From Candidatus Saccharimonadota bacterium (GTDB taxonomy: Bacteria; Bacteroidota; Bacteroidia; Cytophagales; Amoebophilaceae): DNA of 32,000 nucleotides. The position numbers were made by a program, and so were the translations under genes. The stretch is taken from NCBI RefSeq assembly GCF_964030745.1, contig NZ_OZ034918.1:840001-872000 (forward strand). The letters run 5' to 3'. This document shows, in pieces, positions 21,377 through 24,003 of this stretch (positions are counted from its first letter, which is position 1; each line of letters opens with the position of its first letter). The notes under the pieces are model-generated. The model was not told the origin of the DNA and made no database searches. It saw only the letters and a program-made list of their open reading frames with translations.

Positions 21377-22153
21377 ATGAATGAAAAATTAATGCTGTTT
21401 TGCAAATCAATACTAGATCGTACTGCTGCTAACTTTCCCAATGAAGCTTTGCATCGTCTCAAAGCAAACATGCACCATCTATTAAACCCTGAGAATGCGC
21501 CTAAGCCTCTGTTGCCTATGCAAAACCCCACTTTCCATTATTATCCTGGCTTAAGGGATCAGCCCTGGTGGGATATTACATTTATGCCAAAAAACCAATT
21601 AATGGAGTGTAAAGAAAAAATCAAGGCAGAATTACAAGGTATTTTATTTCAAGAAAAATTTACTCCATTTAGTTTAAATGTAACAGAGCCTTTTCCTCCT
21701 GCTTATCTGGACGGATCAATGAATACCTATCACTTAATACGTGATTTAGACCCTGATCAAAATAAGTATGCCCAAAGACAATTGGAACTACCGCAAACCA
21801 TGGCATTGCTTCGTTCTATTCCAGGGCTTGCCGATGATGCATTTTTTTCCTGTTTTGTTCCAGGAACCCATCTTAAACCACATGCGGCTGAAGATAATGT
21901 GCGTTTAAATGTTCATTTAGGATTGGAGGTCCCTAGGGGTTGTGGTATTGCAGTAGCTGCTCAACAGCGTATATGGCCTGAAGATCAAATGCTCTGTTTT
22001 GATCCAAGTTTTACGCATGAAGCTTGGAATTTTGGAGCTTCCAATAGGCATGTGCTTTTATTCACGATATGGCATCCAGATCTTACGCAGGCTGAGGTAT
22101 TTGCTATTAAATTATTTAGTAAGGAATACCATCATTATGTAGATAGGTTATAA
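21377..22153 (+). CDS. Aspartyl/asparaginyl beta-hydroxylase family 2OG/Fe(II) oxygenase
   Basis: Motifs seen are FHYYPGLRDQPWWD, GTHLKPHAAEDNVRLNVHLGLEVP and FDPSFTHEAWNFGASNRHVLLFTIWHPDLT. These match the PF05118 core with both His-containing ligand motifs present. No obvious TM segment. Confidence 0.85.
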   Translation: MNEKLMLFCKSILDRTAANFPNEALHRLKANMHHLLNPENAPKPLLPMQNPTFHYYPGLRDQPWWDITFMPKNQLMECKEKIKAELQGILFQEKFTPFSLNVTEPFPPAYLDGSMNTYHLIRDLDPDQNKYAQRQLELPQTMALLRSIPGLADDAFFSCFVPGTHLKPHAAEDNVRLNVHLGLEVPRGCGIAVAAQQRIWPEDQMLCFDPSFTHEAWNFGASNRHVLLFTIWHPDLTQAEVFAIKLFSKEYHHYVDRL

Positions 22154-22173
22154 AAATGTAAAATGTTTCATTT

Positions 22174-24003
22174 ATGAAAATCTTAGTGATTCATGACAAT
22201 CCATCAGATCCTATCGTTTCGTTGATAGCCAGCCAGCAAAGTCTACTGAAACAGCATGTTACATTGGTATCGCTACAATTGTTCATTGAGCAAATGCAGG
22301 TATGTGATCAGATAGATGAGCGTGGGGTCTCTATTCAATGGACGCTTAAAGATCAAGATAATGGTACCAAATGTTGGACCAATCATGATACCTATCTGCT
22401 CAATCGATGCCATCAGTTTCCTGGGACATGGAATCATTTGTTTCATCCTGATGATAGGGAATATGCACGAAATGAATTAACTGCTTATTTGCACTTTGCA
22501 TTTACTGCTTTTAAATATCGTATACAACCTGTCAGTTACTATGGGCTTAGTGGATCTGTTATGCCACTGTTTGTGCAATGGGATATCGTCAAAAATAGAC
22601 TGCCTGGTCTAGATGTTCCTGCTTATTATGTGGGGCCTTATGGCGAGATACCATGGCCAAAGGCTGTAATGAATCCTGATCCGTATGATGTCACTTATTG
22701 GGTAGCTGAAATGGTCAATCATCATACAAACAAAGATTATGTCTTTGCCTACCAAAGGCCTGTTGGGCAACCTGTATTGGTCTATATCACGCCTATAGGT
22801 GCTGAGGTTGTAAAGGATCATGTTTTTAATCAAGAATCTGGGACAGAACAGATCAATGAAGCGTTATTAAAGCGTTTTGCCACAAGCATTGGCCAAAAAC
22901 TGGCTATTAGATTAGGTGAAATACTTTTTTTTGTTGCACCGCAACAAGTTACATTTGGTGCAGCCACTCCACGCGTGATTCATGCACAACATACCCCTCA
23001 TTTTCAAAAATTAACGCTGCAAGCACTGACTACCCCATTGGCTTATCATAATCCTGATCATCCATTAGATTCCTTTCAACACTCGATTGTTAATGATAAT
23101 TTTGGTGTTATACCGAGTACAGTTGGCAGCGTCATTGCGATCGGTTCAACCAAAGATAACACCATGTACAACTTGGTAGCAAGCCAGTCGTTTAATAAAA
23201 ATGGAGTATTATTACCCTTGGAAGCATGTAACGTAACATGGCATTTTTCTTATAGCAATGGTGTATTAAGGTTTTTTACAAAAGATAGCTGTTTGGAAAC
23301 TATAGCTGCCATCTACTATCGGCCTTTTGCACGGCAAGAAAATAATGCGTTAGACTTACTACATAATTGTTTGGATAGTTTTGATGGACTGGTATATGGA
23401 AGAGGAAGCGCGCAATATCTTAATGCTTCTAAACCAATGCAACTAGCCCATGTCCTACCTGTTATGCATGCATATCATGCTGTTGCATTACCTGATACAA
23501 CTATCATCAAAATGATGGATCACCCAGCCGGGATTTCAGAACCAAGCGGTGTGCAGTATATTACAAAGTCCATTTCTGGTGTTAGATCTATTGTAGTGAA
23601 TAACCATGTTTTTGACAGGTGGGAACAAAATGGTTTACATACGCTACCTACTTTATTTCAGAAACAGATAGAAGGGGATGATATACGGGTACATGTATGC
23701 CATGATCAAGTATTTGCTGTAAAAATTACGCATAAAGATGCTGTGGATTACCGATATGCAGCTGCTTTTTCTATTCAAATAATAACCCTTCCGAAAGAAA
23801 TCATAGCATTTTGTCTTATGGTGAGGCGCCTAGAAGCAAACCCACTGATTGGTATAGATTTTATCCGAACAACTAGTGGATATATATTCCTTGAAGCCAA
23901 TCCAATGCCTGGTTGGGATTGGTTTTATAGCAAAAATGAAATTGTAACTATCAAAGAAAGTATTTGTGATACAATCATGCAAGGTGACCCTGTTCACCAT
24001 TAG
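22174..24003 (+). CDS. Internally duplicated ATP-grasp protein, C-terminal half resembling RiPP (MvdC/MvdD, MdnB/MdnC-type) peptide ligases
   Basis: The C-terminal half has VQYITKSISG (ATP-Lys context), IEGDDIRVHVCHDQVFAVKI, AVDYRY, LPKEI and IGIDFIRTTSGYIFLEANPMPGWDWF (E-x-N Mg/ATP motif). The N-terminal half (~1-290) aligns to it but reads QVTFGAATPRV where the E-x-N should be. It starts 20 nt after the hydroxylase gene. Confidence 0.7.
   Translation: MKILVIHDNPSDPIVSLIASQQSLLKQHVTLVSLQLFIEQMQVCDQIDERGVSIQWTLKDQDNGTKCWTNHDTYLLNRCHQFPGTWNHLFHPDDREYARNELTAYLHFAFTAFKYRIQPVSYYGLSGSVMPLFVQWDIVKNRLPGLDVPAYYVGPYGEIPWPKAVMNPDPYDVTYWVAEMVNHHTNKDYVFAYQRPVGQPVLVYITPIGAEVVKDHVFNQESGTEQINEALLKRFATSIGQKLAIRLGEILFFVAPQQVTFGAATPRVIHAQHTPHFQKLTLQALTTPLAYHNPDHPLDSFQHSIVNDNFGVIPSTVGSVIAIGSTKDNTMYNLVASQSFNKNGVLLPLEACNVTWHFSYSNGVLRFFTKDSCLETIAAIYYRPFARQENNALDLLHNCLDSFDGLVYGRGSAQYLNASKPMQLAHVLPVMHAYHAVALPDTTIIKMMDHPAGISEPSGVQYITKSISGVRSIVVNNHVFDRWEQNGLHTLPTLFQKQIEGDDIRVHVCHDQVFAVKITHKDAVDYRYAAAFSIQIITLPKEIIAFCLMVRRLEANPLIGIDFIRTTSGYIFLEANPMPGWDWFYSKNEIVTIKESICDTIMQGDPVHH

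What the first reader, a model, noticed from the sequence alone, without database searches (positions are those of the whole stretch)
21377..24003. Two-gene operon pairing an Asp/Asn beta-hydroxylase with a tandem ATP-grasp ligase: candidate peptide/protein-modifying system with no assigned substrate
Seen in sequence:
- The two genes are on the same strand and 20 nt apart.
- The hydroxylase keeps both His-ligand contexts (LKPHAAED, FTHEAWN) and has no TM segment, unlike membrane-bound LpxO.
- The 609-aa partner is an internal duplication. Aligned pairs are ILVIHDNPSDPIVSLIASQ / VIAIGSTKDNTMYNLVASQ, YQRPVGQPVLVYITPIGAEVV / FQKQIEGDDIRVHVCHDQVFAVKI, and LGEILFFVAPQQVTFGAATP / IGIDFIRTTSGYIFLEANP.
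- Only the C-terminal copy retains the ATP-grasp E-x-N motif, the DYRY segment and the ...FLEANPMPGWDWF ending. The last two recall microviridin-type RiPP ligases (..DWR.., ..FLEINPnGqW.W..).

Established knowledge: that ATP-grasp clade makes side-chain ester/amide macrocycles on ribosomal peptides. 2OG-dependent Asp hydroxylation occurs in some RiPPs (for example CinX in cinnamycin; I have not checked its family membership).

Inference: the pair acts on one peptide or protein substrate. In an intracellular symbiont that substrate could even be a host protein, since ATP-grasp enzymes also include the tubulin-ligase fold. I know of no described system that combines a pseudo-ATP-grasp/ATP-grasp fusion with an Asp/Asn hydroxylase.
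Basis: partly seen in the sequence, partly recalled or inferred. Interest (0 to 1): 0.72.

Follow-up and report, generated by a model that had tools for sequence, protein, structure and literature searches.

The report
Peptide-modifying gene cluster in Cardinium
An insect endosymbiont (Cardinium) carries a very rare gene set (small Lys/Asp-rich peptides, membrane proteases, an Asp/Asn hydroxylase and a double ATP-grasp ligase with one dead half) that most likely makes a cross-linked, hydroxylated ribosomal peptide of a kind not found described in the papers searched.

Summary
A 258-aa PF05118 Asp/Asn beta-hydroxylase (21377-22153) lies 20 nt upstream of a 609-aa ATP-grasp protein (22174-24003).

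The C-half best matches RiPP ATP-grasp maturases (TIGR04187 5e-12, PsnB 4e-6), ahead of RimK. The N-half shows no significant sequence similarity to the C-half. Its AlphaFold model (pLDDT 86.5) is nevertheless an ATP-grasp fold closest to microviridin macrocyclases (Foldseek 5e-10), and it lacks the ATP/Mg residues, so it is a pseudo-enzyme.

Both proteins belong to tiny subfamilies (about 8 and 10 members in 5.8 billion proteins). [quoted passage not shown]

A substrate candidate exists. A 63-aa peptide (20057-20248, plus a truncated copy at 17059) belongs to a small family (9 proteins in the database search, 12 sequences once locus ORFs are added). The family has invariant F-x-G-C, a Lys/Asp-rich stretch and a C-terminal YKF, and was seen only beside this gene pair.

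CPBP proteases also co-occur. Distant relatives in Chlamydiae, Bdellovibrionota and Psychromonas keep the pseudo/active ATP-grasp pair next to SDGKE-repeat peptides, without the hydroxylase.

Best reading: a graspetide-like RiPP pathway, a new variant of a known kind. The chemistry is inferred, not shown.

The parts
20057..20248 (+). Intact candidate precursor peptide (63 aa): MEEQIKTQRKKLLISFSGCTKDDNGKRDKSNSTDRISIYKGTYGKSNYNGHPEQCASQLSYKF
   Evidence: 100% identical to P0153, 'hypothetical protein [Cardinium endosymbiont of Philonthus spinipes]'. It belongs to a family of 12 peptides with invariant F16, G18, C19, D22 and F63, and near-invariant L12, S15, Y61 and K62. Homologues lie next to the hydroxylase/ATP-grasp pair in L001, L002, L004, L021 and L025. 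No hydrophobic segment.
17059..17256 (+). Truncated second copy of the precursor gene. It is homologous to copy 2 only up to about 17187, then runs into unrelated sequence. It is probably a pseudogene.
   Evidence: Direct repeat D3, 17011-17187 against 20009-20185, 97%. The pairwise alignment loses identity after 'GGCACCTAT'. An IS with perfect 27-bp inverted repeats (17296-17322 / 18461-18487) and an rve-type transposase at 17334..18422(-) sits just downstream.
18536..19195 (+). CPBP / Rce1-like intramembrane protease, paralogue 1 (219 aa)
   Evidence: PF02517 at E 8e-10, 39.3 bits against a cut-off of 22.4. Four hydrophobic segments. The EELIARF, FSLMH and IHAISN motifs are read directly in the translation. 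51% identical to the CPBP of L001.
19256..19900 (+). CPBP / Rce1-like intramembrane protease, paralogue 2 (214 aa)
   Evidence: PF02517 at E 1e-9. 60% aa identity to paralogue 3, dN/dS 0.28.
20353..21057 (+). CPBP / Rce1-like intramembrane protease, paralogue 3. The ORF runs from TTG at 20353; homology to relatives starts at about 20416.
   Evidence: PF02517 at E 1e-8. 83% aa identity to paralogue 1, dN/dS 0.23. The precursor-CPBP cassette is duplicated (repeats D1-D4).
21377..22153 (+). Soluble Fe(II)/2OG Asp/Asn beta-hydroxylase-family enzyme (258 aa)
   Evidence: PF05118 at 2e-30. Best PDB sequence match is human AspH at 8e-21. In that alignment the two His (PH.., F.HE.W) and the Ser, Arg and His aligned with the 2OG-binding region are conserved. 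The subfamily has about 10 members, then a gap from E 1e-62 to 1e-23. dN/dS 0.12-0.21.
22174..23073 (+). N-terminal half of the 609-aa protein: ATP-grasp fold without catalytic residues (pseudo-ATP-grasp 'partner' domain). The boundary is approximate.
   Evidence: AF2 pLDDT 86.5. Foldseek top hits are AMdnB, MdnC, CdnC and PsnB. No Pfam, NCBIfam or PDB-sequence hit. The family also exists as stand-alone proteins of about 287 aa. In the hhalign register, D562, E574 and N576 align with L, A and T, and the K-S-x-S-x-x-R-S loop has no counterpart. dN/dS 0.20-0.24.
23074..24003 (+). C-terminal half: catalytically equipped ATP-grasp ligase domain of the RiPP-maturase type
   Evidence: TIGR04187 at 5e-12 over model positions 50-310 of 312, MvdC at 5e-7, RimK at 1e-5. 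PsnB 7drm at 4e-6. Invariant K, Q, R, H, D, E-x-N. dN/dS 0.26-0.29.

Best explanation
This is the core of a graspetide-like RiPP (ribosomally made, post-translationally modified peptide) pathway in a Cardinium endosymbiont.

Proposed mechanism:
1. The small Lys/Asp-rich peptides encoded just upstream (intact copy 20057-20248) are the substrates.
2. The 609-aa protein acts as a built-in heterodimer. The dead N-terminal ATP-grasp copy holds or presents the peptide, perhaps through the invariant L-x-[LI]-S-F-x-G-C segment or the C-terminal Y-K-F.
3. The live C-terminal copy uses ATP to activate Asp side-chain carboxylates as acyl-phosphates. It joins them to Lys amines (isopeptide/macrolactam) or to Ser/Thr hydroxyls.
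4. The soluble AspH-like Fe(II)/2-oxoglutarate enzyme hydroxylates the beta-carbon of Asp/Asn residues of the same peptide.
5. The CPBP intramembrane proteases, duplicated together with the precursor genes, either trim and release the peptide at the membrane or protect the producer.

Shown: gene identities, folds, conservation, strict co-occurrence, and purifying selection.

Inferred: that the peptides are the substrate, which residues are joined or hydroxylated, the order of steps, and the role of the CPBPs.
For: Enzyme assignment:
- The C-half's best matches are RiPP ATP-grasp maturases.
- The N-half is an ATP-grasp fold closest to microviridin, chryseoviridin and plesiocin macrocyclases, but lacks the Mg/ATP residues.
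- The hydroxylase is PF05118, with the Fe and 2OG residues aligned to human AspH.

Co-occurrence:
- The ATP-grasp subfamily has 8 members and the hydroxylase subfamily about 10 in 5.8e9 proteins.
- They are adjacent and co-oriented in the window, L001-3, L004-5, L007, L008, L021-24, L025 and two JGI contigs.
- A CPBP gene is present wherever enough flank exists.

Substrate:
- The peptide family has 9 database members and 12 once locus ORFs are added.
- It was found only beside this pair or in the same Cardinium genome. tblastn gives E 9e-8 between the L004 and window peptides.
- The peptides are rich in the donor and acceptor residues graspetide ligases use (K, D, S, T).

Generalisation:
- Distant loci keep the pseudo-ATP-grasp plus ATP-grasp pair, fused or as two genes.
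- 11 of 12 such loci have a small ORF upstream with 2-3 SDGKE(G/S)G repeats and an aromatic-x-Phe C-terminus. These often come with an ABC-ATPase/Lon-S16-like protein.

Selection: dN/dS is 0.12-0.29 on all parts, including the dead half.

Precedents:
- SmaO, an Asp beta-hydroxylase in a graspetide cluster (PMC12186529).
- K-x-x-x-D isopeptide plus 2OG hydroxylation, and partner-protein dependence (PMC13097080).
- The (KxxE)n lactam motif (PMC12848669).
Against: - No chemistry was observed.
- Scores to curated RiPP-maturase models are far below their cut-offs (45.6 bits against 350), so the enzyme is not a member of a defined graspetide family.
- RimK-type models also match weakly.
- The full-length AF2 model was poor (pLDDT 48.7), and the C-half fold was not modelled separately.
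- The peptides have no clear leader/core boundary and no GG cleavage site.
- The Chlamydiae-type relatives lack an N-terminal leader altogether.
- The window lacks the Lon-like peptidase, the GNAT-domain protein and the ABC genes seen in sister loci. One precursor copy is broken next to an IS. The pathway may therefore be incomplete in this genome.
- The hydroxylase scores about equally against AspH (77.7 bits, PDB) and the lipid hydroxylase OlsC model (67.9 bits). Its peptide substrate therefore rests on context.
Confidence: 0.68

Rival explanations
1. The ATP-grasp acts on the peptide's C-terminus rather than making side-chain to side-chain rings. It would activate the invariant C-terminal Phe carboxylate. 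It would then add amino acids (as RimK does on S6) or close a Lys-side-chain-to-tail lactam.
For: The C-terminal aromatic-x-Phe is the most conserved feature across both peptide types: YKF in 11 of 12 Cardinium-type peptides, and FVF, YLF, FSF, IFIF and similar in the SDGKE type. RimK-family models match the C-half (TIGR00768 1e-5, PF08443 1.6e-4, RimK PDB 1.4e-3). RimK structures are also among the fold matches.
Against: RiPP macrocyclase models and structures rank above RimK in every search. The conserved C-terminus could equally be a recognition ('follower') element. Repeated D/K/E/S motifs are typical of side-chain cross-linking substrates (PMC13097080, PMC12848669).
Confidence: 0.14
2. 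The pair modifies some other protein, of the bacterium or of the host cell. The adjacent small ORFs and CPBP genes would then be an unrelated bacteriocin/immunity-type cassette that merely travels with the pair.
For: Precursor-CPBP cassettes are duplicated independently of the enzyme pair: 2 precursor copies (one truncated) and 3 CPBP genes in the window, 2 and 2 in L025. CPBP/Abi proteins are known as bacteriocin immunity proteins (own knowledge). Some ATP-grasp enzymes modify proteins (RimK, tubulin ligases; own knowledge). The host is an intracellular symbiont that encodes a RING-finger protein.
Against: The peptide family was found only next to the pair or in the same genome. Distant relatives of the ATP-grasp pair that lack CPBP and hydroxylase still carry analogous D/K-repeat peptides directly upstream. 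This ties the peptides to the ligase rather than to the CPBP.
Confidence: 0.08
3. The cluster is a decaying remnant in this reduced, IS-ridden genome and no longer makes a product.
For: One precursor copy is truncated beside an IS. The Lon-like peptidase, GNAT-domain and ABC genes of sister loci are absent from the window. The sister locus L025 has a fragmented hydroxylase and ATP-grasp. The window is crowded with transposases.
Against: The hydroxylase, the 609-aa ligase, three CPBPs and one precursor are full-length and align end to end with relatives. dN/dS is 0.12-0.29. Three further precursor paralogues exist in the genome: P0157 and P0160 elsewhere, and P0158, which is the truncated window copy. 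Missing genes could lie outside the 32-kb window.
Confidence: 0.07
4. The hydroxylase is a lipid hydroxylase (LpxO/OlsC-like) acting on lipid A or ornithine lipid. Its neighbourhood with the ATP-grasp would be incidental.
For: NCBIfam's best hits are OlsC (7e-19) and LpxO (3.5e-11). lpxD, lpxC/fabZ and lpxA lie 2.5-5.8 kb downstream.
Against: Scores are far below the equivalog cut-offs (67.9 against 450, 42.7 against 500). The protein has no TM segment. The match to human AspH's catalytic domain is at least as good. The lpx neighbourhood is unique to the window, whereas the ATP-grasp neighbour is universal, including on a plasmid-like contig in L001.
Confidence: 0.03

Closest known systems
Graspetide (omega-ester/amide peptide) pathways: microviridin MdnB/MdnC, plesiocin PsnB, chryseoviridin CdnC
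   Same: A ribosomal peptide gene sits next to an ATP-grasp ligase. The C-half's best profile and PDB matches, and the N-half's best fold matches, are these enzymes. The peptides are rich in Asp, Lys, Ser and Thr.
   Different: The ligase is a fusion of a dead and a live ATP-grasp copy (about 600 aa, or two genes in relatives). Scores to TIGR04187, MvdC and MvdD are far below their cut-offs. There is no PFFARFL-type leader or GG site. The C-terminal aromatic-x-Phe is conserved. CPBP proteases and a PF05118 hydroxylase are core members.
Group 18 graspetide cluster with SmaO/SmaX (PMC12186529)
   Same: An Fe(II)/2OG Asp beta-hydroxylase is encoded with an ATP-grasp enzyme and a precursor peptide in one RiPP cluster.
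   Different: SmaO works with the HD-domain enzyme SmaX to make aminomalonate. It sits beside a GG-motif precursor and a PCAT. No SmaX homologue is adjacent here. The paper does not give SmaO's Pfam family in its main text, so homology to the PF05118 enzyme here is untested.
Corallotide (group 15) and rosaritide (group 21) pathways (PMC13097080)
   Same: Repeated Lys...Asp motifs are closed to isopeptide bonds by an ATP-grasp and then hydroxylated by a 2OG oxygenase. The graspetide synthetase depends on a partner protein.
   Different: The oxygenase there is PF13640 and hydroxylates Lys C-delta. The partner proteins are a PPIase-like chaperone and a beta-lactamase-fold protein, not a pseudo-ATP-grasp. 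The precursor is about 22 kDa.
Human AspH and the lanthipeptide hydroxylase CinX
   Same: PF05118 catalytic domain. The two-His iron site and the 2OG-binding residues align with AspH. Asp beta-hydroxylation of a peptide or protein substrate is the family's hallmark. CinX, DurX, YhhC and CanE are listed as RiPP Asp hydroxylases in PMC12186529.
   Different: There is no TPR domain or membrane anchor. The next relatives outside the subfamily are TPR-PF05118 proteins at only 30-36% identity. CinX family membership was not tested here.
CPBP/Abi (Rce1-like) proteases of bacteriocin and quorum-peptide loci (own knowledge: Abi immunity proteins, SagE, MroQ)
   Same: PF02517 membrane proteins are encoded next to small peptide genes, and copy number tracks the peptide genes.
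   Different: The peptides have no CAAX box (no Cys at position -4). The role (processing or immunity) is unknown. No paper was found linking CPBP to graspetides.
Peptidase-containing ABC transporters (PCATs) of RiPP clusters
   Same: In relatives (L015, L016) an ABC-ATPase-like protein is fused to a peptidase domain and encoded directly after the ligase.
   Different: The peptidase is Lon S16-like with a Ser-Lys dyad, not a C39 Cys protease. This gene is absent from the window.

Membership tests
Graspetide RiPP pathway | Short ribosomal precursor peptide encoded with the ligase | tested here: met
   A conserved 39-66 aa peptide family lies next to the pair in the window, L001, L002, L004, L021 and L025. 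Translation itself was not shown.
Graspetide RiPP pathway | ATP-grasp ligase belonging to the RiPP-maturase clade (TIGR04187, TIGR04184, TIGR04185, TIGR04192) | tested here: inconclusive
   These models are the best hits (5e-12, 1e-4, 5e-7, 1e-3), but at 18-46 bits against cut-offs of 230-475. The best PDB sequence hit is PsnB at 4e-6.
Graspetide RiPP pathway | Side-chain omega-ester or omega-amide macrocycles in the product | not testable with these tools
   This needs mass spectrometry or NMR of the modified peptide.
Graspetide RiPP pathway | Core peptide with conserved acceptor (Asp/Glu) and donor (Lys/Ser/Thr) residues | tested here: met
   D22 is invariant and a K/D-rich stretch follows G-C in all 12 peptides. 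Distant relatives carry SDGKE repeats.
ATP-grasp superfamily (C-terminal half) | ATP/Mg-binding residues (Lys, Gln/Glu, Asp, Glu-x-Asn) | tested here: met
   K465, Q496, R505, H507, D562, E574 and N576 are invariant in 35 sequences. PF08443 scores 21.8 bits against a cut-off of 21.
ATP-grasp superfamily (N-terminal half) | ATP-grasp fold | tested here: met
   The AF2 model has pLDDT 86.5. Foldseek gives E 5e-10 to 1e-6 against ATP-grasp ligases over nearly the whole length.
ATP-grasp superfamily (N-terminal half) | Catalytic ATP/Mg-binding residues | tested here: not met
   In the hhalign register, D562, E574 and N576 align with L, A and T, and the K-S-x-S-x-x-R-S loop aligns with a gap. None of the conserved positions of the 32-sequence family is a Lys or an E-x-N. 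The register itself has low confidence.
Asp/Asn beta-hydroxylase family (PF05118) | Pfam gathering score and the Fe/2OG-binding residues | tested here: met
   106.1 bits against a cut-off of 22.6. Both His and the aligned Ser, Arg and His of human AspH are conserved. Residue roles are from my own knowledge of AspH.
LpxO (lipid A hydroxylase) | NCBIfam equivalog score; membrane anchor | tested here: not met
   42.7 bits against a cut-off of 500. No hydrophobic segment.
OlsC (ornithine-lipid hydroxylase) | NCBIfam equivalog score | tested here: not met
   67.9 bits against a cut-off of 450.
RimK-type alpha-L-glutamate ligases | NCBIfam TIGR00768 / PRK10446 score | tested here: not met
   24.7 bits against 143.4, and 13.7 against 331.
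CPBP / Rce1-like glutamic intramembrane proteases | Pfam gathering score, multi-pass membrane topology, EExxxR / FxxxH / HxxxN motifs | tested here: met
   35-39 bits against a cut-off of 22.4. Four hydrophobic segments in each. The motifs EELIARF, FSLMH and HAISN are read in the translations.
Known anti-phage defence systems (PADLOC) | Match to any PADLOC model | tested here: not met
   No hits for the hydroxylase, the ligase, the CPBP, the Lon-like protein or the GNAT-domain protein.

The most novel reading that the evidence does not exclude
The window samples an undescribed RiPP family with four defining features:
- an obligatory pair of one dead and one live ATP-grasp copy, either fused or encoded as two genes;
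- precursor peptides with short Asp/Lys repeats (SDGKE-type or KDDxxKxDK-type);
- an invariant aromatic-x-Phe C-terminus on those peptides;
- a distribution restricted to intracellular or predatory bacteria (Cardinium and its relatives, Chlamydiae, Bdellovibrionota) plus Psychromonas.

The Cardinium branch has added an AspH-like hydroxylase and CPBP proteases. Its product would be an isopeptide-cross-linked peptide bearing beta-hydroxy-Asp/Asn, a metal-binding group. It could act on the arthropod host, for example as a protease inhibitor or a Ca/Fe binder.
Probability: 0.3. Interest if true: 0.78.

Novelty: new variant of a known kind. Interest (0 to 1): 0.64.

Why it matters
**For RiPP enzymology.**
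- It would add a ligase architecture not reported in the papers I could search: a catalytically dead ATP-grasp copy as the permanent partner of a live one.
- It would add a new precursor family.
- It would be the first pairing I could find of a PF05118 AspH-type hydroxylase and CPBP proteases with an ATP-grasp ligase.

**For symbiosis biology.**
- A 1.1-Mb Cardinium genome keeps this cluster under purifying selection.
- That genome holds four precursor paralogues.
- A sister locus lies on a plasmid-like contig.
- Together these suggest a mobile trait that matters for life inside an arthropod. The cluster gives a concrete, testable small-molecule candidate in a group of bacteria known for manipulating host reproduction.

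**Testability.** The system is small enough (one peptide, two enzymes) to reconstitute in E. coli.

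Tried and rejected
- **Sequence test of the internal duplication.** blastp gave E 9. hhalign on shallow profiles gave E 0.42. Deeper profiles gave only probability 4%. I did not accept the duplication on sequence; it rests on the fold.
- **Full-length AF2 with a 6-sequence alignment.** The model had pLDDT 48.7 and was unusable.
- **Exact-sequence look-ups.** The window ligase, P0157 and P0160 were not on record. The other precursor paralogues could therefore not be placed in the genome.
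- **Lipoprotein idea** (L-S-F-S-G-C as a lipobox followed by a Bacteroidota K-D-D export signal). Rejected: the peptide has no hydrophobic stretch (maximum KD19 -0.48) and only 12-22 residues precede the Cys.
- **An apparent 'VYKF' reading frame upstream of each precursor.** There is no ORF. It overlaps a TAnnTTTG motif that is not conserved upstream of the precursors in other loci.
- **Sigma-70 promoter and terminator scan.** Counts equalled the shuffled expectation.
- **Pfam on the 170-190-aa protein.** No hit. A profile search against PDB sequences then supported a Lon S16-like assignment.
- **PADLOC.** No hits.
- **Literature searches that found nothing:** Cardinium + ATP-grasp, ATP-grasp + CPBP + RiPP, graspetide + CAAX, and the string SDGKEG. 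PF05118, PF02517 and Cardinium were not found in the held supplements of PMC13097080. The library is incomplete, so this does not prove novelty.

Full report
**1. Observation**

The two ORFs are exactly as described: 21377..22153 (+, 258 aa) and 22174..24003 (+, 609 aa), separated by 20 nt. The first is an Asp/Asn beta-hydroxylase-family protein (PF05118, E 2e-30, 106 bits against a cut-off of 22.6).

- Its best solved relative by sequence is human AspH (E 8e-21). In that alignment the two His (..KPH.., F-T-H-E-A-W) and the Ser, Arg and His flanking them are conserved. I know these as iron and 2-oxoglutarate ligands from the AspH literature.
- It has no hydrophobic segment; the maximum 19-residue Kyte-Doolittle mean is 1.12.
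- It scores far below the equivalog cut-offs for LpxO (42.7 against 500) and OlsC (67.9 against 450).

**2. The 609-aa protein**

Only the C-terminal half carries ATP-grasp sequence motifs.

- Its best curated-model hits are RiPP maturases: TIGR04187 at 5e-12 covering model positions 50-310 of 312, and MvdC at 5e-7. RimK follows at 1e-5.
- Its best PDB sequence hit is the plesiocin macrocyclase PsnB (7drm, 4e-6). RimK (1e-3) and MdnB/MdnC come next.
- All scores are far below family cut-offs, so this is an outlier, not a member of a curated family.

The N-terminal half shows no significant similarity to the C-half.

- blastp gives E 9.
- hhalign on shallow profiles gives E 0.42.
- With 32- and 35-sequence profiles, hhalign still gives only 4% probability (E 0.011).

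Structure settles the matter. An AlphaFold2 model of residues 1-300, built on the 32-sequence alignment, has pLDDT 86.5 and pTM 0.86. Foldseek against the PDB returns the graspetide macrocyclases AMdnB (4.9e-10), MdnC, CdnC, MdnB and PsnB first. RimK, PruB and D-Ala-D-Ala ligases follow.

The N-half is therefore a full ATP-grasp fold.

- In the hhalign register the three metal ligands of the C-half (D562, E574, N576) face Leu, Ala and Thr, and the K-S-x-S-x-x-R-S loop has no counterpart. It is a pseudo-enzyme.
- It has no Pfam, NCBIfam or PDB-sequence match.
- It is under purifying selection, with dN/dS 0.20-0.24. The C-half gives 0.26-0.29 and the hydroxylase 0.12-0.21.

**3. Co-occurrence**

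The ligase has only 8 relatives among 5.8 billion clustered proteins. The hydroxylase has about 10 close relatives, after which E-values jump from 1e-62 to 1e-23 for TPR-PF05118 proteins.

Wherever DNA or gene tables were available, the hydroxylase gene lies immediately upstream of the ligase on the same strand:

- L001, L002, L003
- L004, L005
- the P0004 contig
- the P0007 contig
- L007
- L008
- L021-L024
- L025, where both genes are fragmented

Flanking genes differ between loci:

- L001 is plasmid-like (Rep3, ParA, relaxase, T4 coupling protein).
- L025 is flanked by uvrC and a PBP.
- L004 is flanked by thyA.

The pair is therefore a mobile module.

The thrS-lpxD-lpxC/fabZ-lpxA genes downstream in the window are a local accident, not evidence for a lipid A role.

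**4. More parts than two**

Every locus with enough flank also has a CPBP/Rce1-like membrane protease (PF02517). The window has three (18536-19195, 19256-19900, 20353-21057). Each has four hydrophobic segments and intact EExxxR, FxxxH and HxxxN motifs (read).

Every such locus also has a small ORF.

- The window's intact copy (20057-20248, 63 aa) is 100% identical to a hypothetical protein of 'Cardinium endosymbiont of Philonthus spinipes'. This identifies the source organism.
- A profile of four such peptides found only 9 proteins in the whole database, four of them in that Cardinium genome.
- Adding ORFs from L021 and L025 gives 12 sequences. F16, G18, C19, D22 and the C-terminal Phe are invariant; L12, S15, Y61 and K62 are near-invariant.
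- The layout is an N-terminal L-x-[LI]-S-F-x-G-C, then a Lys/Asp-rich stretch (for example TKDDNGKRDK), then a variable region, then Y-K-F-COOH.

The peptide has no hydrophobic segment. A lipoprotein or signal-peptide reading of 'LSFSGC' is therefore rejected.

The window's other copy (17059..) is identical up to about 17187 and then diverges. It sits next to an IS with perfect 27-bp inverted repeats at 17296-17322 and 18461-18487.

Precursor and CPBP copy numbers rise together: 2 precursor copies (one truncated) and 3 CPBP genes in the window, 2 and 2 in L025, and 1 and 1 elsewhere.

Sister loci additionally encode three things, none of which is in the window:

- a 170-190-aa protein that a profile search identifies as Lon S16-like, with an invariant Ser and Lys (1z0w, 3.6e-7);
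- a 427-431-aa protein with a weak GNAT match;
- ABC components.

**5. The wider family**

A profile search of 1.84 billion representatives gave 2,526 hits. They include:

- stand-alone homologues of the N-half, about 287 aa (P0072, P0073, P0075, P0077);
- stand-alone homologues of the C-half, about 340 aa;
- tandems of about 560-640 aa, some with two live copies (P0008, P0010, P0012).

A scan of species-representative genomes found 12 loci in Oligoflexia/Bdellovibrionota, Chlamydiae (Waddliaceae, Parachlamydiaceae), Psychromonas and an unclassified proteobacterial MAG.

- The N-type and C-type parts are either fused or encoded as neighbouring genes.
- They often sit with an ABC-ATPase-like protein and the Lon-like peptidase, which are fused in L015 and L016.
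- They never sit with the hydroxylase or a CPBP.

In 11 of these 12 loci a small ORF lies just upstream. It carries two or three SDGKE(G/S)G repeats and an aromatic-x-Phe C-terminus. An example is MNNEILKTKIVFGIGGSDGKEGGSDGKEGSSDGKEKINSQATHSTSASTYLF. The Chlamydiae versions start directly at M-G-[WF]-S-S-D-G-K-E behind a ribosome-binding site. A long N-terminal leader is therefore not universal.

The link between peptide and ligase pair is thus older and broader than the hydroxylase. This argues that the peptides are the ligase's substrates.

**6. Mechanism**

Shown:

- the identities and folds of the parts;
- their strict co-occurrence;
- conservation of the donor and acceptor residues;
- purifying selection.

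Inferred:

- The live C-half phosphorylates Asp carboxylates and closes isopeptide or ester rings with Lys, Ser or Thr.
- The dead N-half serves as the peptide-binding or scaffolding subunit of a pseudo-dimer. Solved graspetide ligases are dimers that bind the leader on the enzyme body; this is my own knowledge of the MdnC and PsnB structures.
- The AspH-like enzyme beta-hydroxylates Asp/Asn of the same peptide.
- The CPBPs process the peptide or give immunity.

An alternative is chemistry at the invariant C-terminal carboxylate. I rate it at about 0.14.

**7. Comparison with the literature**

- Asp beta-hydroxylation in RiPPs is known (CinX/DurX, YhhC, CanE).
- In 2025 an Asp hydroxylase (SmaO) was characterised from a group 18 graspetide cluster (PMC12186529).
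- In 2026 corallotide showed K-x-x-x-D isopeptides that are then hydroxylated by a 2OG oxygenase. The same paper reported the first partner-protein-dependent graspetide synthetases (PMC13097080).
- A (KxxE)n lactam motif is also described (PMC12848669).

The general idea is therefore known. I did not find any of the following:

- a pseudo-ATP-grasp partner;
- CPBP proteases in graspetide clusters;
- a PF05118 enzyme in such clusters;
- these peptide families;
- any mention in Cardinium.

The census in PMC8939145 lists neither hydroxylases nor CPBPs among associated genes. The library is incomplete, so absence is not proof.

**8. Verdict**

This is a new variant of a known kind, a graspetide-like RiPP pathway. 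The chemistry is still unproven, and the gene set in this genome may be incomplete.

Noticed in passing
L009 7299-7481; L010 124-264; L011 5788-5928; L012 3183-3323; L013 285-425; L014 340-477; L015 69-227; L016 673-831; L017 6180-6868 (3 copies); L019 7781-7921; L020 6701-6868: Small ORFs with 2-3 SDGKE(G/S)G repeats and an aromatic-x-Phe C-terminus lie directly upstream of the split or fused pseudo-ATP-grasp/ATP-grasp genes. They occur in Bdellovibrionota, Chlamydiae and Psychromonas. They look like a second, larger precursor family of the same system.
   Followed up: partly
P0008 residues 1-25, P0011 and P0018 N-termini; L001 4747-6036 (C-terminal ~65 aa of the 429-aa GNAT-domain protein): A motif T/S-F-I-P-x-x-x-R-P-x-I-x-G occurs at the N-terminus of stand-alone C-type ATP-grasp proteins and of the double-live tandem P0008. 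It also occurs at the C-terminus of the GNAT-domain protein of the Cardinium-type cluster (tblastn E 0.006; A3 consensus). Its meaning is unknown.
   Followed up: no
L001 4444-4611 vs L002 1823-1990: The two precursor genes differ at 3 residues near the C-terminus (..NNKRTSVVYKF and ..NNKLTLFVYKF). The neighbouring 152-aa, 429-aa, CPBP and 171-aa genes compared were 100% identical in protein sequence. This hints at fast diversification of that part of the peptide.
   Followed up: no
window 1781-3505 (+): A 574-aa protein with a C-terminal RING-finger domain (PF13639, 9e-7). This is a eukaryote-type E3-ligase domain and a likely host-directed effector of the symbiont.
   Followed up: no
window 6984-10562 (-): A 1192-aa protein joins a sodium:solute-symporter domain (residues 44-432) to a C-terminal HD_4 domain (PF13328, 1e-7). 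PF13328 is one of the two families that SmaX, the enzyme acting after the Asp hydroxylase SmaO, resembles (PMC12186529). This is probably a coincidence and was not examined.
   Followed up: no
window 3765-4739, 5135-6580, 10950-11984 (-), 12075-12650 (-), 13586-14806, 17296-18487, 24121-24585: The window has a very high load of mobile elements: IS110-, IS66-, DDE_Tnp_1- and Mutator-family transposases, a resolvase, an rve-type IS with perfect 27-bp inverted repeats, and a truncated PDDEXK_2 transposase.
   Followed up: partly
window 64-1677, 13015-13524, 15007-16812 (-): There are three copies, one truncated, of a 'Predicted AAA-ATPase' + PDDEXK_9 nuclease protein (PF09820/PF08011).
   Followed up: no
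L004 ~7170-7230: A G+C-rich hairpin followed by a T-run (GGGGGAAGCTTTTTCCCC TATTATTTTTTT) lies between the precursor stop codon and the hydroxylase gene (sequence printed). This is the arrangement expected for a leaky terminator that sets the precursor:enzyme ratio. No equivalent was seen in the window.
   Followed up: no
L025 2351-12251: A marine-metagenome (TARA) scaffold of 117 kb carries the fullest version of the cluster: Lon-like, GNAT-like, ABC, two CPBP-precursor pairs. Its hydroxylase and ligase are broken into 5-6 fragments, an example of the cluster decaying in a relative.
   Followed up: partly
window 29881-31218 and 30001-31000: A 445-aa ORF has no Pfam or NCBIfam match. It lies in a stretch with strongly negative AT skew (-0.42).
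   Followed up: no
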